Shown piece by piece: positions 5,971-64,000 of a stretch of 64,000 nucleotides of DNA (positions are counted from its first letter, which is position 1; each line of letters opens with the position of its first letter). The stretch spans positions 29,005-93,004 of the IMG/VR virus record IMGVR_UViG_3300010392_000664; one strand, given 5' to 3'. Position numbers and translations under genes: made by a program. This DNA is from a virus. A model generated the notes under the pieces. The model searched no databases and was not told the origin of the DNA. It saw only the letters and a program-made list of their open reading frames with translations.

Positions 5971-6486
5971 TCAACCAAAAATAGCTGATTTTGTTGCACG
6001 AAAAGCCTTAGTCACCCTGGCAACGGACCATCCAGATTCGTGCAAATATTCACGAAGGGAGGATCTCCAATTGTAAGGGCGACCACCCTTATCTGATGCT
6101 GAAACAGTAAGTGCCACCGGTGGGTTTAAAAGCAATCGAATGACGGTTTTTGAATCTTCAGTAAACCCATCACAAAATTCATCAAAGTTGAATTCCTGTC
6201 TTTTTAGACAAGAGAGCATTTCGATTGAAATGTTAGTAAGAACACCTTCCACCAATTTGTTGTGCCCTCTAATCACATTGCTCAACTTGTTGTTGATGCA
6301 GGTGCCAAGATAAGTGGTGAATTTGATTCCTCGATTCGGGTCATACGAACGACGGGCAGCAAGGTATGCCTCATACGCAGGAGTCAACAAATCCTCCGGT
6401 TCCCTGTAGTTGAACTTTTTGGCATTTCGATGAATCAGCATCCATACGAATTTTTCCACATCTTCATAACTTTGTTTTTCGGGCAT
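5971..6486 (-). CDS. sigma70 region-2-like factor (possible phage late sigma)
   Basis: EDLL..AYEAYLAARRSYDPNRGIKFTTYLGTCINN matches sigma region 2. Likely start MPEKQSY at 6486, shorter than the ORF track call (6651). Confidence 0.7.
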   Translation of the reverse strand: MPEKQSYEDVEKFVWMLIHRNAKKFNYREPEDLLTPAYEAYLAARRSYDPNRGIKFTTYLGTCINNKLSNVIRGHNKLVEGVLTNISIEMLSCLKRQEFNFDEFCDGFTEDSKTVIRLLLNPPVALTVSASDKGGRPYNWRSSLREYLHESGWSVARVTKAFRATKSAIFG

Positions 6487-6610
6487 TGTGCCATCCCTGT
6501 AAAAATGGAAGTTTTGGTATGGAGACATTGTACACATGTCTTCAAACAATGTCAACTCAAAAACCGGAAATAGTCCATCGAGGAGATGCCGCCACAGGAA
6601 AACGGCTGGA

Positions 6611-6907
6611 CTATTTCCGGCTTGGGTCAACCACATTGCCATTTTCGGCAATCAGTTTAGAATCCCCCATAAAATGTTTCCAAATTTTCCAATAATGTTC
6701 AGGATCTCGTACTTCGCTATCCCGAATGAGTCTTTGGCTTCCCCGAACATCCCAGCAATTCAAAAATACCCCACATACCGAAAATGCCTCAACCCGCACT
6801 ATTTGCCCATCTTTAATCTCGGTCAACTCTAAATAAAGTGACGGAGTCTCCTCGACATCATCCTCTTTAAGCCAATCCTGAATTTTTCTTTTAATCCACT
6901 TCAGCAT
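6611..6907 (-). CDS. hypothetical protein
   Basis: Overlapping-operon ORF. Confidence 0.55.
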   Translation of the reverse strand: MLKWIKRKIQDWLKEDDVEETPSLYLELTEIKDGQIVRVEAFSVCGVFLNCWDVRGSQRLIRDSEVRDPEHYWKIWKHFMGDSKLIAENGNVVDPSRK

Positions 6908-50600: not shown

Positions 50601-51879
50601 TTAGGTTTCTAAATCAACTCTCCTCATTTTTTCTATGAGACTTGCATTCAACTCTTCCACAAATTCATTCCAAGCCAAAATGACTTGTTCCAAGGTAGCT
50701 GGCCGATCACCACCCATGCTAATGACCTTCAACATTTCTAATGCTGGAAGTGGCAAATCTTCGGATGTGCTTTCAGCTACTTTTTGGGCAGGAAGACCAA
50801 AAGTATGAATTCGATCTTCCTGATCCTGCCAAACCAATAGTGGACCGGCGTCACGCAAATCAGTGACGGGGCGAACTCCAGAAATTGGATCTTTTTTAAT
50901 ATCTGGTAACAACTCACTTCTCCTTTTTAATCAGAACTGTCGTATGAGTATGTGTGACCACATTTATCACACCTTACTGTGTGTAAACACCTACGCCTAT
51001 CTTCCGCTGGGCCAACTTCTTCATAATCATGATCACAACCAATTTTGACATAAATAATTGGTTCAGTGTAAATAACGGAATGATCGACCCTATTCAATTT
51101 CCACTTGCTCGGCCAGACCACTGCAATGGCATGTCCATTATACCACATGATCTCAGTATTTCTGTAACCCTCCACCAAATTTTCTTCACTTTTCCAAGTT
51201 TCCCCAATGAATCTCACCTGACGAAATGATCGAAAGTGAGGAACTTCAACTTTTGAAGAATGAATGTACTCATTCACATCGACGACCCGATAGGGCTGCG
51301 GTAAATCATTGTACCTTTTCAAATCGGTTATCCATTCCGGTTTTTTGAAATCCTTATCTGCAACACGCGTGAACCTATACATTAATTCAACTCCTCTCGT
51401 TTGATCGTTTGTTCCTTATGTGTCTTGATGATTATATGAGAAATGTCAAACACTAATCTGTCAGAAAACACACCGACGGATTTACTGATAAATCCCATGA
51501 CTCTCTTCAAATCAAATTTACTGTTTTGCAATGAAACTCTTTCAACACAATGAGCAAATTCCAAAACATTACTCAAGTACTCTTTGATGTCCTCTTCTGA
51601 AAATATTTTTTCGTATTTCGGAACCTTATCATAACAATACCGAAGAACGAGATTCGCTATACTGATTATTTCCTTCACAGGCAGTTCACATTCACCAGAA
51701 TACTCTTCTGGATCAAAAAGCATGCAAATGACCTTCCTCAACCAATCCTGACAAAACTCATCACCATCTTCCGCTTTTTTGAGAGCATCCTCCATGATCC
51801 TCCCACGACGACGATCCCCTGCCGGATCTTCAATGATTTGCATTTCGATTTTTCCTTTTATACTTTTTTCGGATTTCAT
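50601..51879 (-). CDS. three hypothetical genes (50601-50912, 50927-51382 with C-terminal Cys/His cluster, 51382-51879)
   Basis: Packed ORFs. Confidence 0.6.
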
Positions 51880-52795
51880 CAGCCAAAGCTATTTCTGAAT
51901 AGGAAAATAACTTCACAGGCATGTGGTTCCACGTCCTGTACGAACAAACCTCAGTTGATATAATGCCCTTCGCTTCTAGCAGATATACCATAATCGTAGT
52001 CAATGAAGTGTCAGCAATCACCTCGTTCACTGTACCCCACCCCTGAACGTCAGGATCTACCCCAGGAAGCCGATCGACCAATTCCTGGTGCCACAGTTCA
52101 AATATATCGGGTTTAGCCATAGCAACTCCACTAGGAGGTCTACAATCCGAGTTGCAGTAGATCTTTCTGTTATTTCTGAGATTTTCTATGGCAAACACTT
52201 TTCCACAAGTCACGCACTTTTTGGTTCTTAATTCTTCTCTTCGTCGTTTGATGACTGGGATAAGATTTTTGTTAACAAAAATCTTACCGTTTTTCTGAAT
52301 TGTTTCCCCCTCTTCTACCAATTCATGGAACATAGAAGACCCCATCTTTAAATTTTTACACACAACAGTCATCGGTAAACAATCAGCGGGTCTCCGTATC
52401 GTTTTCTTGCCATGAGCAGAAAGCACTTGACGCACCCTTTCACGGGTAATCCCAAACCAATCCCCCATCTCTTTCAGAGTGAATCCGGAGTCACACAATT
52501 CAAAAAGAACATCAAGCAGCTCACCTTTCCATACCTTATCACCTTCATGCACACCCCGTTTTTTTCCTACGAAATCTTTCTGAAGTGCCTGTTCAGCAGG
52601 GATTTTCCTTCTTAGCCTGCCAACCAGAGTTTTTCTTTTCACTCCCAAAATATCAGACCATTCCGTAAGTGTATGAGATTCCCCATTACAAGTGTACAAC
52701 TTCTCCGGTCGCCCCCTACCGACTTGAAATGGGAGGTCATCCTTCATGAATTTTTCTAAAGAATCACTCATAACAATAGGGTCATTCCTCCCCAA
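51830..52795 (-). CDS. multi-HTH DNA-binding protein with Zn ribbon
   Basis: GESHTLTEWSDILGV, sigma r4-like TLKEMGDWFGITRERVRQ, CVTCG...YCNSDCR. Confidence 0.72.
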   Translation of the reverse strand: MGRNDPIVMSDSLEKFMKDDLPFQVGRGRPEKLYTCNGESHTLTEWSDILGVKRKTLVGRLRRKIPAEQALQKDFVGKKRGVHEGDKVWKGELLDVLFELCDSGFTLKEMGDWFGITRERVRQVLSAHGKKTIRRPADCLPMTVVCKNLKMGSSMFHELVEEGETIQKNGKIFVNKNLIPVIKRRREELRTKKCVTCGKVFAIENLRNNRKIYCNSDCRPPSGVAMAKPDIFELWHQELVDRLPGVDPDVQGWGTVNEVIADTSLTTIMVYLLEAKGIISTEVCSYRTWNHMPVKLFSYSEIALADEIRKKYKRKNRNANH

Positions 52796-55700: not shown

Positions 55701-57186
55701 AGGTGGCTGAGCCCCAGCCAGATTGGCAGTGCCAAAACAAGTTATTGCTTCCGCATTCACTGCATTTTTTCATGCTCTCGACCTTCGAATGTTTAATTGT
55801 CATTACGTCTTAAGAGATTCTCTGGCCTTGTCGCAGTCGGAAATTGCCTTCGGGCAGACCTCTTTGACTTGTTCAAAAAGTCGCCGCAGTCCCGACTCGT
55901 GTGGCTTGAGATAATAAGACCCCAGGTTCTTGTAAAACGCCTCAATGAAATCATCGATCCCGTAGCCTGCCAAAGCGTCCAACGCCCGGATCTGCTCCTC
56001 GTCAAGCTCCAAAGTTGCATTGACTGTAACTTTGTGACGAATTTTGATTCCCATGATTCCCTCAATCGCAGGTTGTTTAGTTGTCATCGTGTTTTCAGTC
56101 GTACCAGATGACGCCTTTGTCGTTATCAAGGGGTGGTCCGTATGCCACTAACAATTTTCCGCACTCGGTTTCGACAACATATCTCCTGTCACTTTCCGCA
56201 AAAGGCAGCACCCCCACACGTGGTTTCGGCGGAAGTTCGATTGGTTCTGGGAGGCGGTCGGAGAATAGGGAATCGTCGCAAAAGTGCTCCAAGAACCTGA
56301 TAGGACTCCAGTCCACTCCTAGACGGCCCGCAAAATCACGCACCTCAATGACTTCCTGATACTCGTCCAGTTTGTGCCAGTACCACCCCGGTTCGGTCGG
56401 TACGTTATTCGGCTTCAGAATTAGTTGTTGCATTATTTCTCCTTGATTGCTGGATGAACCTTTGTCATCCGATGGTCATGTATTCATCTCGCAGCTTCGC
56501 GAGCTTCTCGTTTGCGAGGTCGATGATTGCTTGTCGCTCTGGAGTTGCGTCCTCTGAGTAGCAACTCACAAACCAAAGATCCGGCTCATTGCGGAACTTT
56601 CCACCAAAGCCTAGAACGCCTTGGAATCGGTATTCGCGACAGCCTTCCCAATCGTGCGTAAAGATAAAGTTCCGGCGATTGCCATCCAGAGCACCGCAAC
56701 ACTCGCAAAGGATGTCATATATTCTTCCGCCATATTCTTCGTGTATGAATTCAAATTTCATCAAACCGCTCAACCTACAAATGAACCTTTGATAACCTGA
56801 TTTCACGCTGGTTGGTACGGTTCTATGCAATAACGCCACGCAATTACGTTGCTTACTACTTTTGCCTCGAAGTCATCTCGACGAAATTTACCACCGATAT
56901 ATACGGCACGGCACGTCAGTCGGACGTTGTTTTCACACTGAAAGGTAATATCGATTGGTCTCGACGACTGAAATCTTCCTGTGTCATCCGGCAGATGCTT
57001 CTCGACCGGTATCCAACAGTCGTTCTCAGATTGATTAGTTGACTCCCTTTCCACCTTTGTTTTGGTAATTGAATACTCCCATGTGTCGTCTGAAGACTCG
57101 TGCCAAGTAGAATCATCAGAATCAAGAAATCCTTCCTCGTATGCCTTTTTCAAATCCGCCGCCGTAAATCGCTTCTCGTCACTCAT
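52782..57186 (-). CDS. run of ~14 small accessory hypothetical genes
   Basis: Contiguous 65-160 aa minus-strand ORFs, e.g. RKIYKYQL (53902), EPGWYW/EPGYYW (53521, 56095), WIPVEKHLP (56803). Confidence 0.65.
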
Positions 57187-57271
57187 AGTTCACTTTCCGT
57201 CCGACTTTGTGTCAAAAATCACCGGTCTCTTACCGGTAGCGGGATGCGTTGTTCAAAACAGAGTACTCCCT

Positions 57272-57277
57272 ATTATA
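57272..57277 (-). promoter_or_regulatory. -10 element for the leftward gene block
   Basis: TATAAT on the minus strand ~85 nt upstream of ATG 57186; no good -35. Confidence 0.35.
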
Positions 57278-57390
57278 CACCTACCACCTTGACTTTGTCG
57301 CAATATATTTCCAGAAAATAAAATTTCAATCAAAACAAAGATTTAGCAGGCGTAAGCCCGATTTCCTACTACCCTAAAATTTCCCCCCCA

Positions 57391-57660
57391 CAAAATTTTA
57401 GACCTACCAGTTATCAGAAAATTACTTATCCCCATTTCTATCCCCGTACTAGGCCGGTTTGCCCCTAGTCCCCTCAGTAATCAGGTAATAAGAAAGATGA
57501 TCGGATAGTGTAAAGAGTATTATTCTACGCCTAAAAAAATTCCCACCAAAAATTTTCAGATGTATCAGTTATCAGAAAATCAGTTATCATAATCCGTAAA
57601 ACATCATTTATCGTAAATGGAAAAAATTTGTGCCGTAAAATTTTCAGACGTATAAGTTGG
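57391..57660. repeat. three imperfect AT-rich direct repeats AAAATTTT(C)AGA..TA..AGTT(ATCAGAAAAT)
   Basis: Copies at ~57391, 57547 and 57636. Confidence 0.7.
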
Positions 57661-57736
57661 GGGTCGTGCCAAACTGTTGAATCAGTCAACAAACTTCAAA
57701 AGACCCCCACACCCCCCTATCCCCCCTACCTTAACA

Positions 57737-58359
57737 GTTGACTAGGTAACCGTTGCCCCAGTCACCTGTTGACCGGGTATCAGTTGACTGAGTCGCCGTT
57801 GACTAGGCCTACGTTGACCCGGTAACCCGTTGACTAGGTATATAGGTGATTGAGTCAACTGTTGACTGGGTAGCCTGTAGACCGGGTATACGTTGACCTA
57901 GTAGCCTGTTGCCTAGGTATACCCGTTGACTGAGTACGCTGTTGACTAAGATGACTGTTTACTAGGACAACTGTTGAGGCGGTCAACTTGTTGACTCAGT
58001 CATCTGTTGACTGGGTCGCGGTAGTTGACTGGGTATACTGGTGACTGAGTCACCTGCGGGGGCGGGTAGTTGACTAGGTAACCTGTTGACCGGGTATACT
58101 GTAGACTAAGACAACTGTTGACCTAGCTGACACGTTGAATCAGTCATCTTGTTGACTAAGACAACAGGTGACTAGGTAGCGTTTGTTGACCGGGTACACT
58201 GTTGACTCAGTCAACTACAAAGATAGATAGTTGACTAGGTCTACTGTTGACCGGGTACACGAGTTGAATCAGTCAACTTGTTGACTAGGTAGCCTGTAGA
58301 CCGGGTAAACCGTTGACTAGGTTTACTTGTTAACTCAGTCAACTGTTGACTAAGAAACA
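57737..58359. repeat. tandem array of 37 degenerate 15-bp palindromes GTTGAC-YNR-GTCAAC
   Basis: Counted by hand; units mostly 15-18 bp apart, e.g. perfect GTTGACTCAGTCAAC at 58201. Confidence 0.95.
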
Positions 58360-58668
58360 TATTGATTGGCACGGCAATTGCAGCATATTGCCAGCCTAGT
58401 CAACAAAGATCTTTTTTTTTAGTCAACTTTTCTAGATCTCGCGTATACGGGCCATATTGCCCCCTTACGGGCCAATTGATTAATCAGGTACTATGCTATT
58501 GCCCGCGAGTTGGGGGTTTAGGTAATATAGGGCGTTGACTAATATGACTTGGTACGAAAATTGCGGTTGTTGACTAGGTAACCGGTATCGGGCGGTATTG
58601 TTGACTAAGAAACTTTCTTTTTTTTTCGGGTTTTGTTGACTGGGACACCTTATTATTGTAGCTAGGGG

Positions 58669-58697
58669 TTGACAATTGCCGATACTAAACCTATAAT
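58669..58697 (+). promoter_or_regulatory. consensus sigma70 early promoter
   Basis: TTGACA-17 nt-TATAAT upstream of ATG 58760. Confidence 0.85.
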
Positions 58698-58759
58698 CAA
58701 TAGACCGATCGGTTGACGTCAACCGACAACCCGACAACCCAGTTGACTAGGAGAACCCG

Positions 58760-59930
58760 ATGATTTCCGCCTTTTTTACGTTGATCGGATTAGGATCAAC
58801 TCTTTTTTGCGTTGTTGTTGCCGGTCAACAATTGTACCGCAAAGGACTCAGTCAACTTGTTGACCTAGTATGGGCCGACATTGACGATACCCTAGTCAAC
58901 AAAAAGCCGACCGTTGACCAAGTATCAACTAGCCTACGTAGGGCAATCGACAATGCCCTAGTCAACGCTAAACCGCCGCAACTAGGCCAACTGGCCTGGA
59001 CGTTGGAAGAAGTTGACCAAGCAAACTAGCCGGTTGTTGACCAAGTACCCGATACCCAATACCCGAAAGATGACCGAGATGACAACCCAAAAACCCGACA
59101 ACCGACAACCCGTTGACGTACACGATCAACTAGTCAACGCAATCGGAAAAGTTGCCGAAGTCAACGATATTTCGCTACGTCAACTCCGTCAACAGTTGAT
59201 TACAATCGTCAACGGGTTGACGAACCTTGTTGACTGAGACCACAAACCCGAAAGATGACCGAGATGACAATAACCGACCTACTCGTAGCGTTGACTATAT
59301 TGACAACCCTTCCCGCGACCGTAGCGTTGTTGGTACGGGAAGATAACCGAGTCAACAATGACCCAGTCAACAACTTCCAATACCCGGGCCTGTTGACTGA
59401 GTCGCAACGCCTAGCCGAAACCGACTGTTGAACGAGTCAACGCTTGTAAAAGTTGACTCAATACCCAAACCCGAAAGGTGACCAAGATGACAACCGACAA
59501 CCCGACGACCCCATTGACCAAGTCAACCCTAGCCGAGGTGATCCGGTCAACAACGGCAAAGTTGACCCAGACACTATACGGAGATCAATTGATCGACGTA
59601 GCTACGTTGACCGAGGCACTTTTTGATATTGCCGATCGACTTGACCCAGTCAACTTCCCCGACCAGATGATTGAGTCAACAAAACCGGTTGTTGGCCTAG
59701 TCAACTCGGCTTACCAACATTACCCCGCTGCCTACGTCGACAACGGAGTTGACTGGTTATACGATATTGCCCTATCGGAAGATGACCTAGTCATCTTAGA
59801 GTTGTTGACCGGGTCAGGGGTTTTGCGGGCGGTCAATCGCCGTTGGGAAGGTGGCCTAGTCAACTTTGTTGACTGGGTACAAAAAGACCTCGACGCCCGC
59901 AATCGTCATCACAGTCAACAGCAAGCCTAG
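58760..59930 (+). CDS. four small early genes (58760-59029; ~59070-59237; 59255-59431, not in the ORF track; 59478-59930)
   Basis: First has a GGAG RBS; the others share an ACCCGAAAG(A/G)TGACC(G/A)AGATGAC start motif. Confidence 0.55.
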
Positions 59931-60100
59931 TCAACAGTTGACCGAGTACGCGGTTGCCCCGGTCAACAAATGACTGGGTCAACTGTGTACGGAGTCAACA
60001 GATGATTGAGTCAACAATGACCCAGTCAACAGATGACGCAGTCAACGTCAGCTCGGTCAACGGGCAAAAAGTTGACCAGGATGACTGTTGACTGAGGAGC
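59905..60100. repeat. second palindrome array (~12 units), opposite polarity
   Basis: Conserved half is now the right GTCAAC, e.g. GATGATTGAGTCAAC, GATGACGCAGTCAAC. Confidence 0.85.
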
Positions 60101-60215
60101 CACGAAAAATTTTCAACGGTCGGAAATTGACGGAGTCTACTGGCGGAAAAAAGATGAATCAGTCAACAACAACCCGATACCGTGAAACCCCTGACCTAGT
60201 CAACAATTGGCGGTT

Positions 60216-60300
60216 GTTGACTAAGAAACTTTTGAAAAAACCCGAAAATAATCGTTTTTCTTGTAACATTTCGCGTTGCAATTACGCTTAGCAATATAGG
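60216..60300 (+). promoter_or_regulatory. repeated promoter cassette, copy 1 (ECF-like)
   Basis: GTTGACTAAGAAACTTT..A-tract..GTAAC-17-CGCTTAGCAATATAGG. Confidence 0.65.
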
Positions 60301-60363
60301 CGACGGGTTGACAACAACCCGCAACGATACCCGATACCCAAAACCCGAAAAAGAAAGATACCG

Positions 60364-60564
60364 ATGGCCGATCAACGAGTATGGGACGAAATTGACGAAC
60401 AAGCACAAGCGGAAGGTTCCGGGCTCCGTCGGGCCTACCATAGCGTAGGCAGGCGACTGGGACGCAAAAACCTAGCCTATCACGACCGATCAACCGACCG
60501 ACAACAACAACCCCAGAAAAAGTACCCTAGCCTACTTGATCGACTAGAAACGGAAATCGGGTAG
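60364..60564 (+). CDS. small early protein
   Basis: AAAGAAAGATACCGATG start motif; followed by a 13-bp hairpin at 60571-60603. Confidence 0.6.
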   Translation: MADQRVWDEIDEQAQAEGSGLRRAYHSVGRRLGRKNLAYHDRSTDRQQQPQKKYPSLLDRLETEIG

Positions 60565-60917
60565 TCGGTGACCCGGTCAACGGTGTCGGGCCGTTGACCG
60601 GGTATATGGGTTTGCTAACCCCCTACCGATTTCCCCAGTCAACTATCAGACTTCTGATCCCAATACCCGACGATACCGACACCAATACCAACAACAACGA
60701 TACCCAGGCAACTATAGGCTAGGTCAACAATCCAAAACAAAGATAACCTAGTCAACAAGTACAATCAGTCACCAATTTACCTAGTATACAATACCCCTAG
60801 TCAACAATTTACTCAGTCAACTTCCCACAACCGCCGACTAGTGTTTTCCTGGTCAACCGGTTGTCATAGTCAACAGTCTCCTGATGTTTTCCCAGTCAAC
60901 TAAAAGAAAGATACCCG

Positions 60918-61055
60918 ATGAACTATTATTTCACAGGATTCGGTGACCTGCTCGATACCGAAAACACTGATAATTGGCAAGATGATGATAACGAGGAAAG
61001 CGAACTGCTTGATTCTGAAATAGAAGTACACCTCGATGATCTAGTCGACAGTTGA
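60918..61055 (+). CDS. 45-aa highly acidic peptide (not in the ORF track)
   Basis: Start motif AAAGAAAGATACCCGATG identical to that at 63688; MNYYFTGFGDLLDTENTDNWQDDDNEESELLDSEIEVHLDDLVDS. Confidence 0.6.
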   Translation: MNYYFTGFGDLLDTENTDNWQDDDNEESELLDSEIEVHLDDLVDS

Positions 61056-61099
61056 CTGAGTACGCGATTGTAAGTTGACCGAGTCTCCCTAAAAGAAAG

Positions 61100-61303
61100 A
61101 TGACTAAGATGACATACGCACTAGCACGATTATTAAAAGACGCACATCCCGAACAGAACCCCCGATATTACCCAAACTACTCTGGTCGAGGAATGTACGG
61201 TGAGTCAACTCTCGGACTCGTCGTCAACGACAAGCCTGCCGTTATCGCGAAACGGCATCGACTACGATACGACAACCTAGGGCTCCGATGGATATTGTAC
61301 TAA
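61100..61303 (+). CDS. small early protein
   Basis: YSGRGMYG...RYDNLGL motif; start motif present. Confidence 0.7.
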   Translation: MTKMTYALARLLKDAHPEQNPRYYPNYSGRGMYGESTLGLVVNDKPAVIAKRHRLRYDNLGLRWILY

Positions 61304-61337
61304 GTCAACAATCGGCGGTTGTTGACTAGGCTGACGA

Positions 61338-61422
61338 GTTGACTAAGAAACTTTGGAAAAAACGCCAAAAAAACACGTTTTTCTTGTAACATATCGCGAG
61401 TTTTTACGCTTAGCTATATAGG
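61338..61422 (+). promoter_or_regulatory. repeated promoter cassette, copy 2
   Basis: GTAAC-16-CGCTTAGCTATATAGG. Confidence 0.65.
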
Positions 61423-61465
61423 AAAACAACCGACAACCCGATACCCGAAAAAAGGAACCTGACCG

Positions 61466-62417
61466 ATGGATCCGAACGCCACAGTCAACGAAATCGAAAT
61501 TGCAATGGAAGACCAAGACTGGGAGCAGGCAAGGTATCTTGCCGAAGACCTGCTGACATGGCTCGACAACGGCGGGTTTCCCCCGTCAACAATGTCAGGA
61601 ACCGAAGCATACGCTTACGCTTCCTGGGTACTAGAACAATCGGATCAACGACTGTTGATGTTGACCCGGTAACGCGGTCGCAGTCAACAAAAGTCTCCTT
61701 ACCCAACAACCAAAAAAGGAACCCGACTATGTCACGCCGGTCAATGTTAGCCGAAAACATGTATGATGCCATCACCGAAATCATGGAAAAGGAAATTGAA
61801 GAACACGTAGAGGAATCGATCGACAACGTCGTGGAGGACGCAGTCAACTGCATCATTGAAGATAAACTGAGCGAATTGCGGGACGATTTGGAAAAAGAAA
61901 TTGAAGAGCAAGACCTACGGTCAGAATTGGACGATGCCATCAGTCACATCGAAAGGTTGACTGACCGAATCGAAAAATTGGAAAAAACCAAGGTGCCCTG
62001 GTATACACCAATCATCGACCGGATCCGTTGCCTCAGTCAACGGTGGCAAAACCGAAGAGTCTCCTGCTAATCGTCAACCAACAACCCGACAACCCCAAAC
62101 CGACAAAGGAAAACAAGATGACCAACAACACAAACATCACCGTCCCACACTTTGGATGCTCTTGGACCGACAGCATGACGAAACATCTCAAAAAGGAATG
62201 GTTTCGGCTACACTACGATGACTTTCAAACTTCGTTGACCGAGGCAATGCCGAGGATCTGCGAATCCTGGGGGGACTGGTACAAAGCCTATAAAATCGGC
62301 TGGGTACTCAGTCACCTTTTGAAAAGAGAGATGATCCGATTGGAGACCTACAATAACTGCATCGAAATCGTCGAACTATGGAAAACAACGAAAGAGTTGA
62401 CTGAGTCGCGGTTGTAA
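61466..62417 (+). CDS. three early genes (61466-61672 MDPNA..WL..GGFPP; 61729-62070 acidic coiled coil; 62118-62417)
   Basis: Each has an AAAGGAA RBS; starts corrected from the ORF track. Confidence 0.7.
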
Positions 62418-62447
62418 CGGTTGCCTCAGTCAACAGTCTCCTGAAAA

Positions 62448-62532
62448 GTTGACTAAGAAACTTTCGGAAAAATTGAAAAAAACATCAGATTTCCAGTAAC
62501 ATTTGCTGACTTTTTACGCTTAGCTATATAGG
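62448..62532 (+). promoter_or_regulatory. repeated promoter cassette, copy 3
   Basis: GTAAC-16-CGCTTAGCTATATAGG. Confidence 0.65.
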
Positions 62533-62573
62533 AAGCAGTAACAACAACCCGAAACCGACAAAGGAACCCGACA

Positions 62574-62993
62574 ATGGCAATCAACCGCAAAAAAACCCAC
62601 AACGTACATGCCACTTTCCTGTATTCCGGAATGCCCGATTATTGGAAAGGAGACGGCAGCCGATGGGATGACGACAACGGATGCCTCTTTGCATACTACG
62701 ATCACACGACAACCCTTCGACAATTGATCGACAATTGGGTAAGCGATTTTGCAAACGGCGGAGACTGCGATACTATCGACGAAAACATCACCGAATTGGA
62801 CATCAAAGTAGCATTGTTGGAAATGTTGTCACCAGCAGGAGTACAAGACTATCACGGAGACGAATTGGCAGGATGTGCGAAAGACTACCGAGATGCGAAT
62901 ACCGAAGAGGATCTGGCAAACGAGGACTGGGAATCACCCTTCGCTGTCGTATTGATCGAAACAGAACCCGTTGACCAGGACGACGGGGAATAA
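62574..62993 (+). CDS. acidic early protein
   Basis: AAAGGAACCCGACAATG start; D/E-rich. Confidence 0.75.
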   Translation: MAINRKKTHNVHATFLYSGMPDYWKGDGSRWDDDNGCLFAYYDHTTTLRQLIDNWVSDFANGGDCDTIDENITELDIKVALLEMLSPAGVQDYHGDELAGCAKDYRDANTEEDLANEDWESPFAVVLIETEPVDQDDGE

Positions 62994-63045
62994 GTTGACC
63001 GGGTAGCCGGTTGTACGGTTGCCCTGGTCAACAGTCTCCTGAATT

Positions 63046-63129
63046 GTTGACGGAGAAACTTCTGGAATTCTGGCAGAATTTGTCAGAATTCCAGTAACAT
63101 TTGCTGACTTTTTACGCTTAGCTCACTGG
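63046..63129 (+). promoter_or_regulatory. repeated promoter cassette, copy 4 (copy 5 starts at 63967, truncated by the window end)
   Basis: GTAAC-16-CGCTTAGCTCACTGG; core and spacer identical to copy 3. Confidence 0.6.
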
Positions 63130-63164
63130 AAGCATTGACAACCCCAAACCAAAAGGAAAAACCG

Positions 63165-63975
63165 ATGACTAACAAACCAGAACCACGATTGATCAGCGAC
63201 ACAGATTTCACAGATTTCTATGCAAAGGAATTCAACGACAGCGAAGAGGCATTGAAGCAGGCAATGGGCTCCGATTATTGGAACACGGTGATTGAAGTAC
63301 AAGATCGGATTTTCATCGTACCAGAGAAGGTGGCCCAAACTTTCGAAGACATGAAGTGCCCTTTCTATCGGCACCGATTTGTTGCCATACTGGAAAATAT
63401 CAACGGTTGTGAACCAAAGGAGTCTCCTGTTGACAAAGAGCATGTGTACGGGTTGAATCCCACACCAACGTATCGCTGCATCGAGGATGCCATTGTTGAC
63501 GAGATGAATACCGTCCACCATAGATGGAATCATTTCGATAGAAAAGTCATCGAGTTGGATGACTTGGTCAGCATCATGCTGCGTATTGCAGCAAGGGTTG
63601 ATCCGAAATCAGTATCCGACTGGCGTTGACCGGGTAGCCGGTTGTACGGTTGCCTCAGTCAACAGTCTCCTGAAAGAAAGATACCCGATGAAAACTTATC
63701 GTCTCATAAACGTAGTCGGTGGGGGATTCCTCATGGAATGCCTCACCTTTGGTTTCGCAGTCAACAATGCAGTCAACATCGTGCGAAAGTCAAGCAAGGA
63801 TGCTGGTGGGATTCACGTATGGTACGATGACAAACTTGTGGCGAAAATTGACCGAAATCAAAAGTGGGTTTCCGAAGAGCATATTGCCACCTTGGTAGAA
63901 ATCGAGGAATTGGATTTCCGTCGATGGTTCGACCAAGTCAAACTTCCGTTGACTGAGTCGCCGGTTGTTGACTAA
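63165..63975 (+). CDS. two early genes (63165-63629; 63688-63975)
   Basis: RBS/start motifs; starts corrected from the ORF track. Confidence 0.7.
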
Positions 63976-64000
63976 GAAACTTTGGAAAAAACGTCAAAAA

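What the first reader, a model, noticed from the sequence alone, without database searches (positions are those of the whole stretch)
57737..58359. Lattice of 37 phased palindromes GTTGAC-YNR-GTCAAC
Seen: 37 consecutive 15-bp units at ~16-bp period. The left half GTTGAC and the centre Y-N-R-G are strongly conserved (YNR in 36 of 37), the right half is degenerate, and neighbours are never identical, which argues against a simple slippage satellite. A 16-bp period is ~1.5 helical turns, placing successive dimers on alternating faces. Inference: a polymerisation platform for a dimeric DNA-binding protein, such as a centromere-like/packaging site, a protective coat for first-injected DNA, or a DNA sponge titrating a host repressor or defence protein. 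I know of no described element with this consensus.
Basis: partly seen in the sequence, partly recalled or inferred. Interest (0 to 1): 0.85.

Follow-up and report, generated by a model that had tools for sequence, protein, structure and literature searches.

The report
Phage early-region lattice of binding sites
An uncultured 93-kb phage places 37 back-to-back copies of a 15-base half-palindrome between its two main diverging promoters and scatters about 80 more, regularly spaced, over the neighbouring early genes; this is most likely the docking field of one unidentified DNA-binding protein that controls that gene block.

Summary
Window 57737-58359 carries 37 units of GTTGAC-YNR-GTmnmC, mostly 16 bp apart. 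G1 and G10 are invariant, YNR is present in 36 of 37 units, and no two neighbours are identical.

The array is only the densest part of a larger field. Of 180 strong motif matches in the 93-kb genome, 163 lie in its last 6.4 kb.

Core positions are under selection, both across units and between 161-bp duplicated blocks (p = 7e-8). Copies inside genes exceed synonymous-codon shuffles three-fold. Neighbour spacing in the early arm clusters at 16, ~25 and ~35 bp. These results argue for stereospecific protein binding to DNA, not a drifting satellite or an RNA element.

The array lies between diverging sigma70-type promoters. The perfect-consensus early promoter has its -35 inside a motif copy, a related palindrome just downstream, and a copy over the first ribosome-binding site.

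Best reading (about 0.4): an operator lattice for an unidentified regulator of the early module. Origin, centromere, packaging-site, T5-like injection-stop and decoy readings are weaker but not excluded.

No binder, relative or host was found. This scan has noted repeated palindromic operators in other phages' early regions before, but not this motif or a 37-unit lattice.

The parts
57737..58359 (+). Main array A1: 37 units of GTTGAC-YNR-GTmnmC at about 16 bp. The conserved half is on the left. Non-coding in all six frames.
57658..57709 (.). Left edge of the motif field: the 8-bp inverted repeat TGGGGGTC/GACCCCCA encloses the first motif copy, GTTGAATCAGTCAAC (57676-57690). A C-rich run follows, up to the array.
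57272..57329 (-). Two overlapping sigma70-like leftward promoter candidates (TTGAAA-16-TATATT and GCGACA-18-TATAAT) in front of the leftward operon that starts at 57186. No motif copies lie here or further left.
58534..58649 (+). Four single motif copies (58534, 58569, 58600, 58635), 31-35 bp apart, leading from the array to the early promoter.
58669..58697 (+). Rightward early promoter TTGACA-17-TATAAT (12 of 12 matches). Its -35 hexamer lies inside a GTTGAC copy (58668).
58709..58726 (.). Perfect palindrome TCGGTTGAC|GTCAACCGA with zero-spacer half-sites, 12 bp after the -10, where an operator would be expected.
58742..58756 (+). Motif copy GTTGACTAGGAGAAC overlapping the Shine-Dalgarno sequence of the first early gene (ATG at 58760).
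58760..59930 (+). First early operon: four small ORFs of 89, 55, 58 and 147 aa with motif copies embedded in the coding sequence. The operon lies between arrays of opposite polarity.
59914..60070 (-). Array A2: 10 units at 15-16 bp with the conserved half on the right (nnTGAC-YNR-GTCAAC), mirroring A1.
60700..60900 (-). Looser array A3 with the same inverted polarity, in non-coding DNA.
58365..64000 (.). Dispersed field of about 81 sites in both orientations. Density is 24.7 hexamers per kb outside ORFs and 11.4 per kb inside. Neighbour spacing clusters at 16, ~25 and ~35 bp. The field runs to the contig end.
60216..60300 (+). First of five repeated promoter cassettes (the others start at 61338, 62448 and 63046, with a truncated one at 63967). 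Each opens with the invariant copy GTTGACTAAGAAACTTT, followed by an A-rich tract and TGTAAC-N16-CGCTTA.

Best explanation
The array is the core of an operator lattice. One sequence-specific DNA-binding protein, probably a dimer and still unidentified (phage or host), would occupy about 37 contiguous sites between the diverging promoters. It would also occupy about 80 regularly spaced sites on the early promoter, on the first ribosome-binding site, between and inside the early genes, and at the head of each downstream promoter cassette. Together these would form a nucleoprotein domain that switches the early module, most likely shutting it off.

Shown: the motif, its confinement to this module, selection on its core, its spacing rule, and its overlap with promoter elements.

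Inferred: that a protein binds it, that the binder is a dimer, and that the outcome is transcriptional control.
For: (1) Confinement. 163 of 180 weight-matrix hits lie in the last 6.4 kb of the genome, with none in the leftward operon.

(2) Selection. Divergence per unit position is strongly non-uniform (chi-square p = 1.6e-15). Between the 161-bp and 61-bp duplicated blocks, core positions differ at 10 of 136 sites against 62 of 198 non-core sites (Fisher p = 7e-8). Background GTTGAC copies elsewhere in the genome lack the extended consensus.

(3) DNA-level constraint over coding. There are 36 hexamers in the early ORFs against 11.1 +/- 2.7 in synonymous-codon shuffles (maximum 20). Most of these ORFs still score best in their own reading frame.

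(4) Geometry. Centre-to-centre distances of neighbouring sites outside the array cluster at 16, ~25 and ~35 bp, with gaps at 20-22 and 29-30. Rayleigh R is about 0.57 at a period of 9.75-10.5 bp, and no shuffle out of 5000 reached this. The result holds at weight-matrix thresholds from 7 to 12, and most pairs have unrelated spacers.

(5) Symmetry. Sites occur in both orientations with 6-3-6 dyad character. This fits double-stranded DNA read by a dimer rather than RNA.

(6) Position. The array sits between diverging sigma70-like promoters. The 12-of-12 early promoter has its -35 in a motif copy, a half-site palindrome 12 bp after its -10, and a copy on the first Shine-Dalgarno sequence. An invariant copy heads all six cassettes.

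(7) Precedent. Repeated elements in phage early regions have proved to be repressor sites: SPBRE bound by MrpR (PMC10516654) and the Cluster A stoperators (PMC9283540).
Against: No binder was found. There was no Pfam or PHROG hit for 23 flanking small proteins. Six-frame searches of the genome found no HTH_3, RHH_1 or ParB_N domain.

The one candidate picked by eye, the 55-aa product of 59070-59237, models as a helical hairpin. It has no significant fold match and no relatives among 1.84 billion representative proteins.

No related phage carries the motif, so conservation could not be tested.

Thirty-seven contiguous operators placed 310 bp upstream of the promoter are far more than known repressors use. 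The phage shows no integrase and so no sign of lysogeny. Sites are not oriented with transcription. Transcription starts are predicted only, not measured.
Confidence: 0.4

Rival explanations
1. DNA-entry or leading-end device, analogous to the phage T5 injection stop signal. The early module would be the first DNA to enter the cell, and the array at its inner border would pause transfer, or would be coated to protect or hold the leading DNA.
For: T5 has a 1.66-kb non-coding region full of repeats and palindromes at the inner border of its pre-early genes, which make up about 8% of its genome (bioRxiv 10.1101/866236). Here a non-coding region of about 1.5 kb borders an early module of at least 6.3 kb (about 7% of the genome) that is driven by a consensus host promoter. 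The contig ends adjoin next to TerL, so a physical end near the early module is possible.
Against: Termini are unknown. DnaA boxes, the conserved feature of the T5 region, are not enriched. No protein similarity to T5-like phages was found. The idea does not explain copies inside genes, on the promoter and at every cassette.
Confidence: 0.12
2. Decoy or sponge. The sites titrate a host DNA-binding protein (a regulator or a defence sensor), or read the host's state.
For: No phage binder could be found. Large numbers of high-density sites are what titration needs. Earlier notes of this scan report host-repressor operators in other phages' early regions (unchecked here).
Against: The consensus matches no host operator known to me (from memory). 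The host is unknown. Genome-collection hits for the motif were coding repeats or short unrelated minisatellites.
Confidence: 0.1
3. RNA-level element. GUUGAC/GUCAAC pairs form hairpins that terminate, process or stabilise early transcripts, and the array is a by-product or a structured RNA.
For: Many inverted pairs with 1-36 nt loops lie at gene ends. The array folds better than shuffles (z = -6.75). The phage encodes a ProQ/FinO protein.
Against: The array lies upstream of the early promoter, between diverging promoters. Most of its units are not self-complementary: the right half matches at 4.1 of 6 positions. Spacing in steps of about one helical turn has no RNA rationale. There was no Rfam match.
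Confidence: 0.07
4. Replication element: a second origin, or an iteron bank that titrates or handcuffs the initiator.
For: Genes diverge from this point. An AT-rich stretch (GC 0.33-0.37) lies at 57400-57700. Iteron banks such as P1 incA exist (from memory).
Against: A lambda-type origin candidate lies elsewhere: three 21-nt repeats plus three 14-nt repeats inside the HTH_36 initiator gene, with a different sequence. DnaA boxes are not enriched. The 16-bp contiguous spacing differs from the roughly 22-bp phasing of iterons (from memory).
Confidence: 0.06
5. Packaging recognition site (pac/cos region) for a small terminase subunit.
For: No small terminase gene was recognised. An HNH protein with a faint small-terminase match lies 5 kb to the left. 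Small terminases bind repeated boxes (from memory).
Against: TerL lies about 6.5 kb away across the contig junction, and its 3' end faces the module. No known pac site has 37 units or spreads over 6 kb of genes (from memory).
Confidence: 0.05
6. Centromere-like partition site of a plasmid prophage.
For: Tandem repeat arrays are typical of parC, sopC and tubC (from memory).
Against: No ParA (CbiA), ParB_N, deviant Walker A or tubulin signature was found. No integrase or other sign of a temperate lifestyle was found. There was no match to plasmids.
Confidence: 0.04
7. Functionless minisatellite spread by duplication.
For: Higher-order periods of 61 and 161 bp show segmental duplication.
Against: Core positions are protected after duplication. 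About 80 copies lie in unrelated contexts, including coding DNA, and they follow a spacing rule.
Confidence: 0.03

Closest known systems
Cluster O mycobacteriophage 17-bp repeats (TGTTCGG-NNN-CCGAACA; PMC4351075)
   Same: Both have a 7-3-7 dyad architecture; here the extended form is TGTTGAC-YNR-GTCAACA. Both have tens of copies, denser toward one genome arm, with about a third inside coding regions. Both occur in apparently non-temperate siphoviruses, were predicted to bind a dimeric protein, and have no known function.
   Different: The Cluster O arms are invariant; here one half is degenerate. No tandem lattice is reported for Cluster O. Here the sites are confined to one 6.4-kb module. There is no detectable protein kinship to any cultured phage.
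Cluster A mycobacteriophage operators and stoperators (L5 gp71 type; PMC9283540)
   Same: More than twenty copies of one short site lie at promoters and between genes, bound by one repressor that blocks both initiation and elongation.
   Different: Stoperators are asymmetric 13-mers bound by a monomer and oriented with transcription. Here the sites are dyad-like, occur in both orientations and form contiguous arrays. No repressor gene or integrase was found.
SPbeta repeated element (SPBRE) bound by MrpR (PMC10516654)
   Same: A 15-bp element repeated at about ten promoter regions. It was predicted in silico long before ChAP-seq showed that the master repressor binds it.
   Different: SPBRE occurs as single copies, not arrays, in a temperate phage. 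Its binder has a tyrosine-recombinase fold, and no Phage_integrase-type domain was found here.
Phage T5 injection stop region (bioRxiv 10.1101/866236)
   Same: A large non-coding block of repeats and palindromes at the inner border of a small, host-promoter-driven early module in a large siphovirus.
   Different: The T5 region is a mosaic of different repeats with paired DnaA boxes inside a terminal repeat. Here there is one motif, no DnaA-box enrichment, and the termini are unknown.
Arrays of contiguous short operators bound cooperatively by small dimers (omega heptads of pSM19035, ParR-parC, MetJ boxes) and the phi29 p4/p6 nucleoprotein switch between diverging early and late promoters (from memory, not checked here)
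   Same: Many adjacent sites are bound side by side to form a higher-order complex. In phi29 this complex sits between diverging promoters and switches them.
   Different: Those arrays have 2-10 units of 7-11 bp, or non-specific 24-bp binding in phi29. Here there are 37 units of 16 bp plus about 80 satellite sites. No RHH protein was detected.

Membership tests
Iteron-type replication origin | Repeats match the sites of the element's own initiator and lie in or beside its gene | tested here: not met
   The HTH_36 initiator gene lies about 60 kb away in contig coordinates and carries its own 3 x 21-nt repeats of unrelated sequence.
Iteron-type replication origin | Adjacent AT-rich unwinding region and host DnaA boxes | tested here: inconclusive
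   An AT-rich stretch is present at 57400-57700, but DnaA boxes are not enriched (146 found against 165 expected in the window).
Partition centromere (parC/parS/sopC/tubC) | A linked NTPase plus centromere-binding adaptor genes | tested here: not met
   No CbiA/ParA, ParB_N, deviant Walker A or tubulin motif was found in six-frame or ORF searches. ParM-type actins were not searched specifically.
Partition centromere (parC/parS/sopC/tubC) | Tandem array of binding repeats | tested here: met
   37 units at about 16 bp.
Stoperator system (Cluster A) | Asymmetric sites oriented with transcription | tested here: not met
   In the rightward-transcribed arm there are 45 GTTGAC against 55 GTCAAC, and the sites have dyad character.
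Stoperator system (Cluster A) | Cognate immunity repressor and a temperate lifestyle | tested here: not met
   No HTH_3 and no integrase was found. A divergent repressor cannot be excluded.
Cluster O-type dyad repeats | 7-bp inverted arms separated by 3 bp, with many dispersed copies | tested here: met
   The consensus is cTGTTGAC-YNR-GTCAACt, with about 118 distinct sites. One arm is degenerate in most copies.
Cluster O-type dyad repeats | Membership of the Cluster O phage lineage | tested here: not met
   The portal and TerL proteins have no match in 50,697 phage records.
T5 injection stop signal | Lies in a long terminal repeat at the border of first-step-transfer DNA | not testable with these tools
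IMG/VR classes the record as linear, with no end repeats found.
T5 injection stop signal | Conserved paired DnaA boxes | tested here: not met
   Only one single-mismatch box (57426) lies in the non-coding region, and there is no enrichment.
Promoter element (-35) of a repeated promoter class | A second conserved block at a fixed distance downstream | tested here: not met
   There is no information content beyond the motif up to 42 nt downstream of its start, in 31 + 29 dispersed copies. Only one array unit has a sigma70-like -10 partner.
Known RNA family | Match to an Rfam covariance model | tested here: not met
   No match at E <= 0.1 in 57000-64000.

The most novel reading that the evidence does not exclude
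The phage packs its whole early module into a sequence-addressed, chromatin-like domain. A single small protein polymerises on a 37-site nucleation lattice and on about 80 satellite sites spaced in steps of about one helical turn. The mirror-image arrays at 57.7-58.4 kb and 59.9-60.9 kb pair up to loop out the strongest promoter. This would give an all-or-none timer, or possibly a T5-like pause in DNA entry. No such addressed silencing lattice has been described for a virulent phage.
Probability: 0.15. Interest if true: 0.8.

Novelty: new variant of a known kind. Interest (0 to 1): 0.55.

Why it matters
Repeated short elements in phage early regions (SPBRE, stoperators, Cluster O repeats) have been clues to master regulators, some of them still unknown. 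This case has three features that make it useful.

- About 118 distinct sites are confined to 6.4 kb.
- One block of 37 sites is contiguous.
- Neighbour spacing follows a measurable rule.

This gives a clean, synthesisable DNA bait for finding a new DNA-binding protein in a phage lineage with no cultured relatives. It also gives a natural test of how arrays of binding sites shape gene timing. If the array instead marks a pause in DNA entry, two-step injection would extend beyond T5-like phages.

Tried and rejected
Similarity searches
- DNA similarity of the region and of 22 kb of structural genes to phage and plasmid records gave no match.
- The pattern scan of IMG/VR for two adjacent units returned only collagen-like coding repeats with 9/18-bp periods.
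- Three-unit pattern scans of metagenome and genome contigs gave mostly 15-bp pentapeptide-type coding repeats, including all the Planctomycetota hits.
- A few true 16/17-bp GTTGAC arrays turned up (L186, L238, L157, L162, L171, L362, L341). They lie in low-coding DNA, or are short near-identical minisatellites in unrelated bacterial genome bins. I do not count them as relatives.
- The invariant 17-mer cassette header gave two chance hits.

Relatives
- Relatives found through the portal protein (42-55% identity) lack the motif and any equivalent array. One of them replaces the whole 26-kb module with 9.3 kb.
- The flanking proteins have no relatives.

Binder search
- Pfam and PHROG searches of the flanking ORFs gave nothing useful.
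- The AlphaFold model of the 55-aa gene product had no significant fold match.
- The 67-aa basic protein folded poorly, with pLDDT 55.

Other rejected ideas
- DnaA boxes are not enriched.
- The motif is not a -35 element of a repeated promoter class.
- A GTYRAC restriction or methylation site does not fit. The variants in the array do not match GTYRAC, and sites are not depleted elsewhere.

Tools that could not be used
- The genome search does not draw 'relatives' for a virus record.

Full report
**Source and setting.** The window is the last 64 kb of a 93,004-bp IMG/VR virus record. CheckV estimates it at 98% complete, and IMG/VR classes it as linear with no end repeats found. The virus is a siphovirus-type phage with a tape-measure protein, an HK97-type capsid protein and protease, and a portal. 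The first 29 kb of the contig carry TerL, HNH, a family A DNA polymerase, a clamp loader, RecA, a flap nuclease, an SbcCD-like pair, DnaB, an HTH_36 initiator and ProQ/FinO. Almost all genes run leftward. Only the last 5.3 kb run rightward. Neither the DNA nor the portal and TerL proteins match any of 50,697 phage records.

**The observation.** It is correct. I placed 37 units between 57737 and 58359.
- Spacings are 16 (20 times), 17 (7), 15 (5), 18 (2) and 29 (2).
- G1 and G10 are invariant, and Y-N-R is present in 36 of 37 units.
- The left half matches GTTGAC at 5.6 of 6 positions and the right half matches GTCAAC at 4.1 of 6.
- There are 35 distinct 15-mers and no identical neighbours.
- The consensus is cTGTTGAC-YNR-GTCAACt.
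- The array scores as non-coding in all six frames.

**The array is part of a larger field.** GTTGAC and GTCAAC are each expected about 19 times per strand in the genome, but 131 of 190 copies lie in the last 6.3 kb. A weight matrix built from the units finds 180 hits at 9 bits or more. Of these, 163 lie between window 57676 and the contig end. The other 17 compare with about 13 expected genome-wide in shuffles. Background copies elsewhere lack the Y-N-R-G-T extension. Two more arrays lie downstream with the conserved half on the other side: 59914-60056 (ten units at 15-16 bp) and a looser one at about 60700-60900. The leftward operon has no copies.

**Is it a drifting satellite?** No, although duplication did build it. 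Autocorrelation peaks at 16 bp and at 161 bp, and TRF sees periods of 61 and 161 bp. Three tests point to selection on the DNA motif.
- Divergence among units is far from uniform across positions (chi-square p = 1.6e-15).
- When the duplicated blocks are aligned to each other, core positions (1-6 and 10) differ at 10 of 136 sites against 62 of 198 elsewhere (Fisher p = 7e-8). The core was defined on the same data, so this test is partly circular. The dispersed copies give independent support.
- Inside the eleven early ORFs tested there are 36 hexamers against 11.1 +/- 2.7 after synonymous-codon shuffling, with a maximum of 20 in 500 shuffles. Most of these ORFs still score best in their annotated frame.

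**A spacing rule.** For the 81 sites to the right of the array, nearest-neighbour centre distances cluster at 14-19, 22-29 and 31-40 bp, with peaks at 16, 25 and 35. There is almost nothing at 20-22 or 29-30.
- The Rayleigh statistic is about 0.57 for periods of 9.75-10.5 bp. None of 5000 sets of uniform distances reached it.
- Without the 16-bp class it is still about 0.49 (n = 35).
- The result holds at matrix thresholds from 7 to 12.
- Most pairs have unrelated spacers. Only about five pairs come from paralogous cassettes.
- A decayed 16-bp lattice would give 32 and 48 bp, which are rare.

Steps of roughly one helical turn indicate that the rotational setting of neighbouring sites matters. 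That is a property of proteins on double-stranded DNA.

**Context.** The array lies in a non-coding gap of about 1.5 kb between diverging promoter candidates.
- Leftward: TTGAAA-16-TATATT (57329-57302) and GCGACA-18-TATAAT (57301-57272), in front of the operon that starts at 57186.
- Rightward: a 12-of-12 TTGACA-17-TATAAT at 58669-58697.
- Four single copies at 31-35 bp intervals lead from the array to the rightward promoter, whose -35 lies in a GTTGAC copy.
- Twelve bases after the -10 lies the perfect palindrome TCGGTTGAC|GTCAACCGA.
- A further copy, GTTGACTAGGAG, covers the first Shine-Dalgarno sequence.
- Downstream, five repeated cassettes each open with the invariant GTTGACTAAGAAACTTT, followed by an A-tract and TGTAAC-N16-CGCTTA.
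- There is no conserved block at a fixed distance after dispersed copies, so the motif is not itself a promoter element.

**Rival roles.**
- Origin: a lambda-like origin candidate lies inside the HTH_36 initiator gene (three 21-nt repeats plus three 14-nt repeats, of unrelated sequence) at contig 26.19-26.34 kb. DnaA boxes are not enriched.
- Centromere: no ParA/CbiA, ParB_N, deviant Walker A or tubulin signature, no integrase, and no plasmid match.
- Packaging site: TerL lies at contig 508-2130. Synteny with a relative shows that the contig ends adjoin, so the 3' end of TerL faces the 3' end of the early module. No small terminase gene was recognised. Nothing ties the array to packaging.
- T5-like entry stop: the layout resembles the 1.66-kb repeat region that borders the T5 pre-early genes.
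- RNA: many inverted pairs sit at gene ends and the array is self-complementary (z = -6.75). However, the array lies upstream of the early promoter, most of its units are not palindromes, and there is no Rfam match.

**Search for a binder and for relatives.** Both failed.
- Twenty-three flanking small proteins have no informative family.
- Six-frame searches of the genome found no HTH_3, RHH_1 or ParB_N domain.
- The only recognised small DNA-binding proteins are two HTH_36 proteins in the replication operon and a HARE-HTH protein.
- The 55-aa product of 59070-59237 models as a disordered N-terminus plus a helical hairpin (pLDDT 76). By eye this could be ribbon-helix-helix. It has no significant fold match, no family and no relatives.
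- Portal-based relatives lack the module.
- Pattern scans returned coding repeats and unrelated minisatellites.

**Comparison with known systems.** The nearest described thing is the Cluster O mycobacteriophage repeat TGTTCGG-NNN-CCGAACA. It has the same 7-3-7 design, 34 copies that are denser in one arm, a third of copies inside genes, and an unknown function in non-temperate phages. Functionally, SPBRE/MrpR and the Cluster A stoperators show that such elements can be repressor sites. None of these has a contiguous 37-unit lattice, confinement to one module, or a documented spacing rule. Earlier notes of this scan describe repeated palindromic operators in other phages' early regions, so the kind is recurrent. 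This motif and its scale are not.

**Verdict.** The feature is real and under selection. It is most likely a protein-binding lattice that controls the early module (confidence about 0.4). The binder and the biological outcome remain unknown.

Noticed in passing
window 5971-6651 (- strand): This 226-aa ORF matches Sigma70 region 2 above Pfam's cut-off (E = 8e-8), so the phage encodes its own sigma-family factor. It may read the TGTAAC-N16-CGCTTA cassettes of the early arm.
   Followed up: partly
L008:11192-11339 (contig 26.19-26.34 kb, outside the window): Three 21-nt repeats (GGTCTGTATCTCGTTCACCCC, 43-45 bp apart, with an inverted copy) and three tandem 14-nt repeats lie inside the HTH_36 initiator gene. 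This is a lambda-O-like origin candidate.
   Followed up: partly
window 60263, 61386, 62496, 63094: The cassette core GTAACAT...TTACGCTTAGC occurs only in the rightward arm, four times plus a truncated fifth at the contig end. It resembles the Bacillus-type ECF -35 AAC and -10 CGT pattern (from memory).
   Followed up: partly
window 59070, 59255, 61100 (variant at 59478): Three or four early genes share a start module, ATGACYRAGATGAC, giving the N-termini MTEMT or MTKMT. It is a direct repeat of the degenerate half-site GATGAC laid over the start codon.
   Followed up: no
window 57538-57565 and 57636-57660: A direct repeat of about 22 nt, AAAATTTTCAGAYGTATMAGTT, occurs twice, 98 bp apart, in the AT-rich stretch left of the array. 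The second copy could be a weak rightward promoter (TTGTGC-17-TATAAG) reading into the array.
   Followed up: no
window 58447-58476: A short direct repeat, ACGGGCCAWATTG, occurs twice. An ATTGCC motif recurs five times between the array and the early promoter. This may be a second, unrelated site type.
   Followed up: no
contig ends (window 64000 | contig position 1) and relative G001 (L130-L132): In a relative with 55% portal identity, the TerL homologue is followed by 9.3 kb of same-strand genes and then the portal block. The two ends of this contig therefore adjoin. The 26-kb block carrying tethers, lysis genes, small genes, the array and the early arm is lineage-specific. The contig breaks inside a repeated promoter cassette.
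   Followed up: partly
window 51830-52795 (- strand): A 321-aa protein has an HNH endonuclease match (E = 1.6e-8) and a faint small-terminase match (E = 4.5e-4). No clear small terminase gene exists elsewhere.
   Followed up: no
window 56803-57186 (- strand): The first gene of the leftward operon (127 aa, hits phrog_15198) is unique to this phage in a collection of 5.8 billion proteins. It was seen on two contigs, the longest on record being 88,070 bp, so an independent assembly may exist for comparing array length.
   Followed up: no
L186, L238, L157, L162, L171 (metagenome contigs): Long 16/17-bp arrays with GTTGAC-YNR-G(T/G) units occur in low-coding DNA. Several come from related samples (Ga01263xx). 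They are probably eukaryotic satellites. The resemblance to the phage unit is unexplained but probably reflects how the search selected them.
   Followed up: partly
L139:60-500 (relative G004): A 15-bp repeat, GCTCTAGAAAGATCT, at the contig start reads as a pentapeptide-repeat protein (ADLSR-type) on the reverse strand. It is not a binding-site array.
   Followed up: yes
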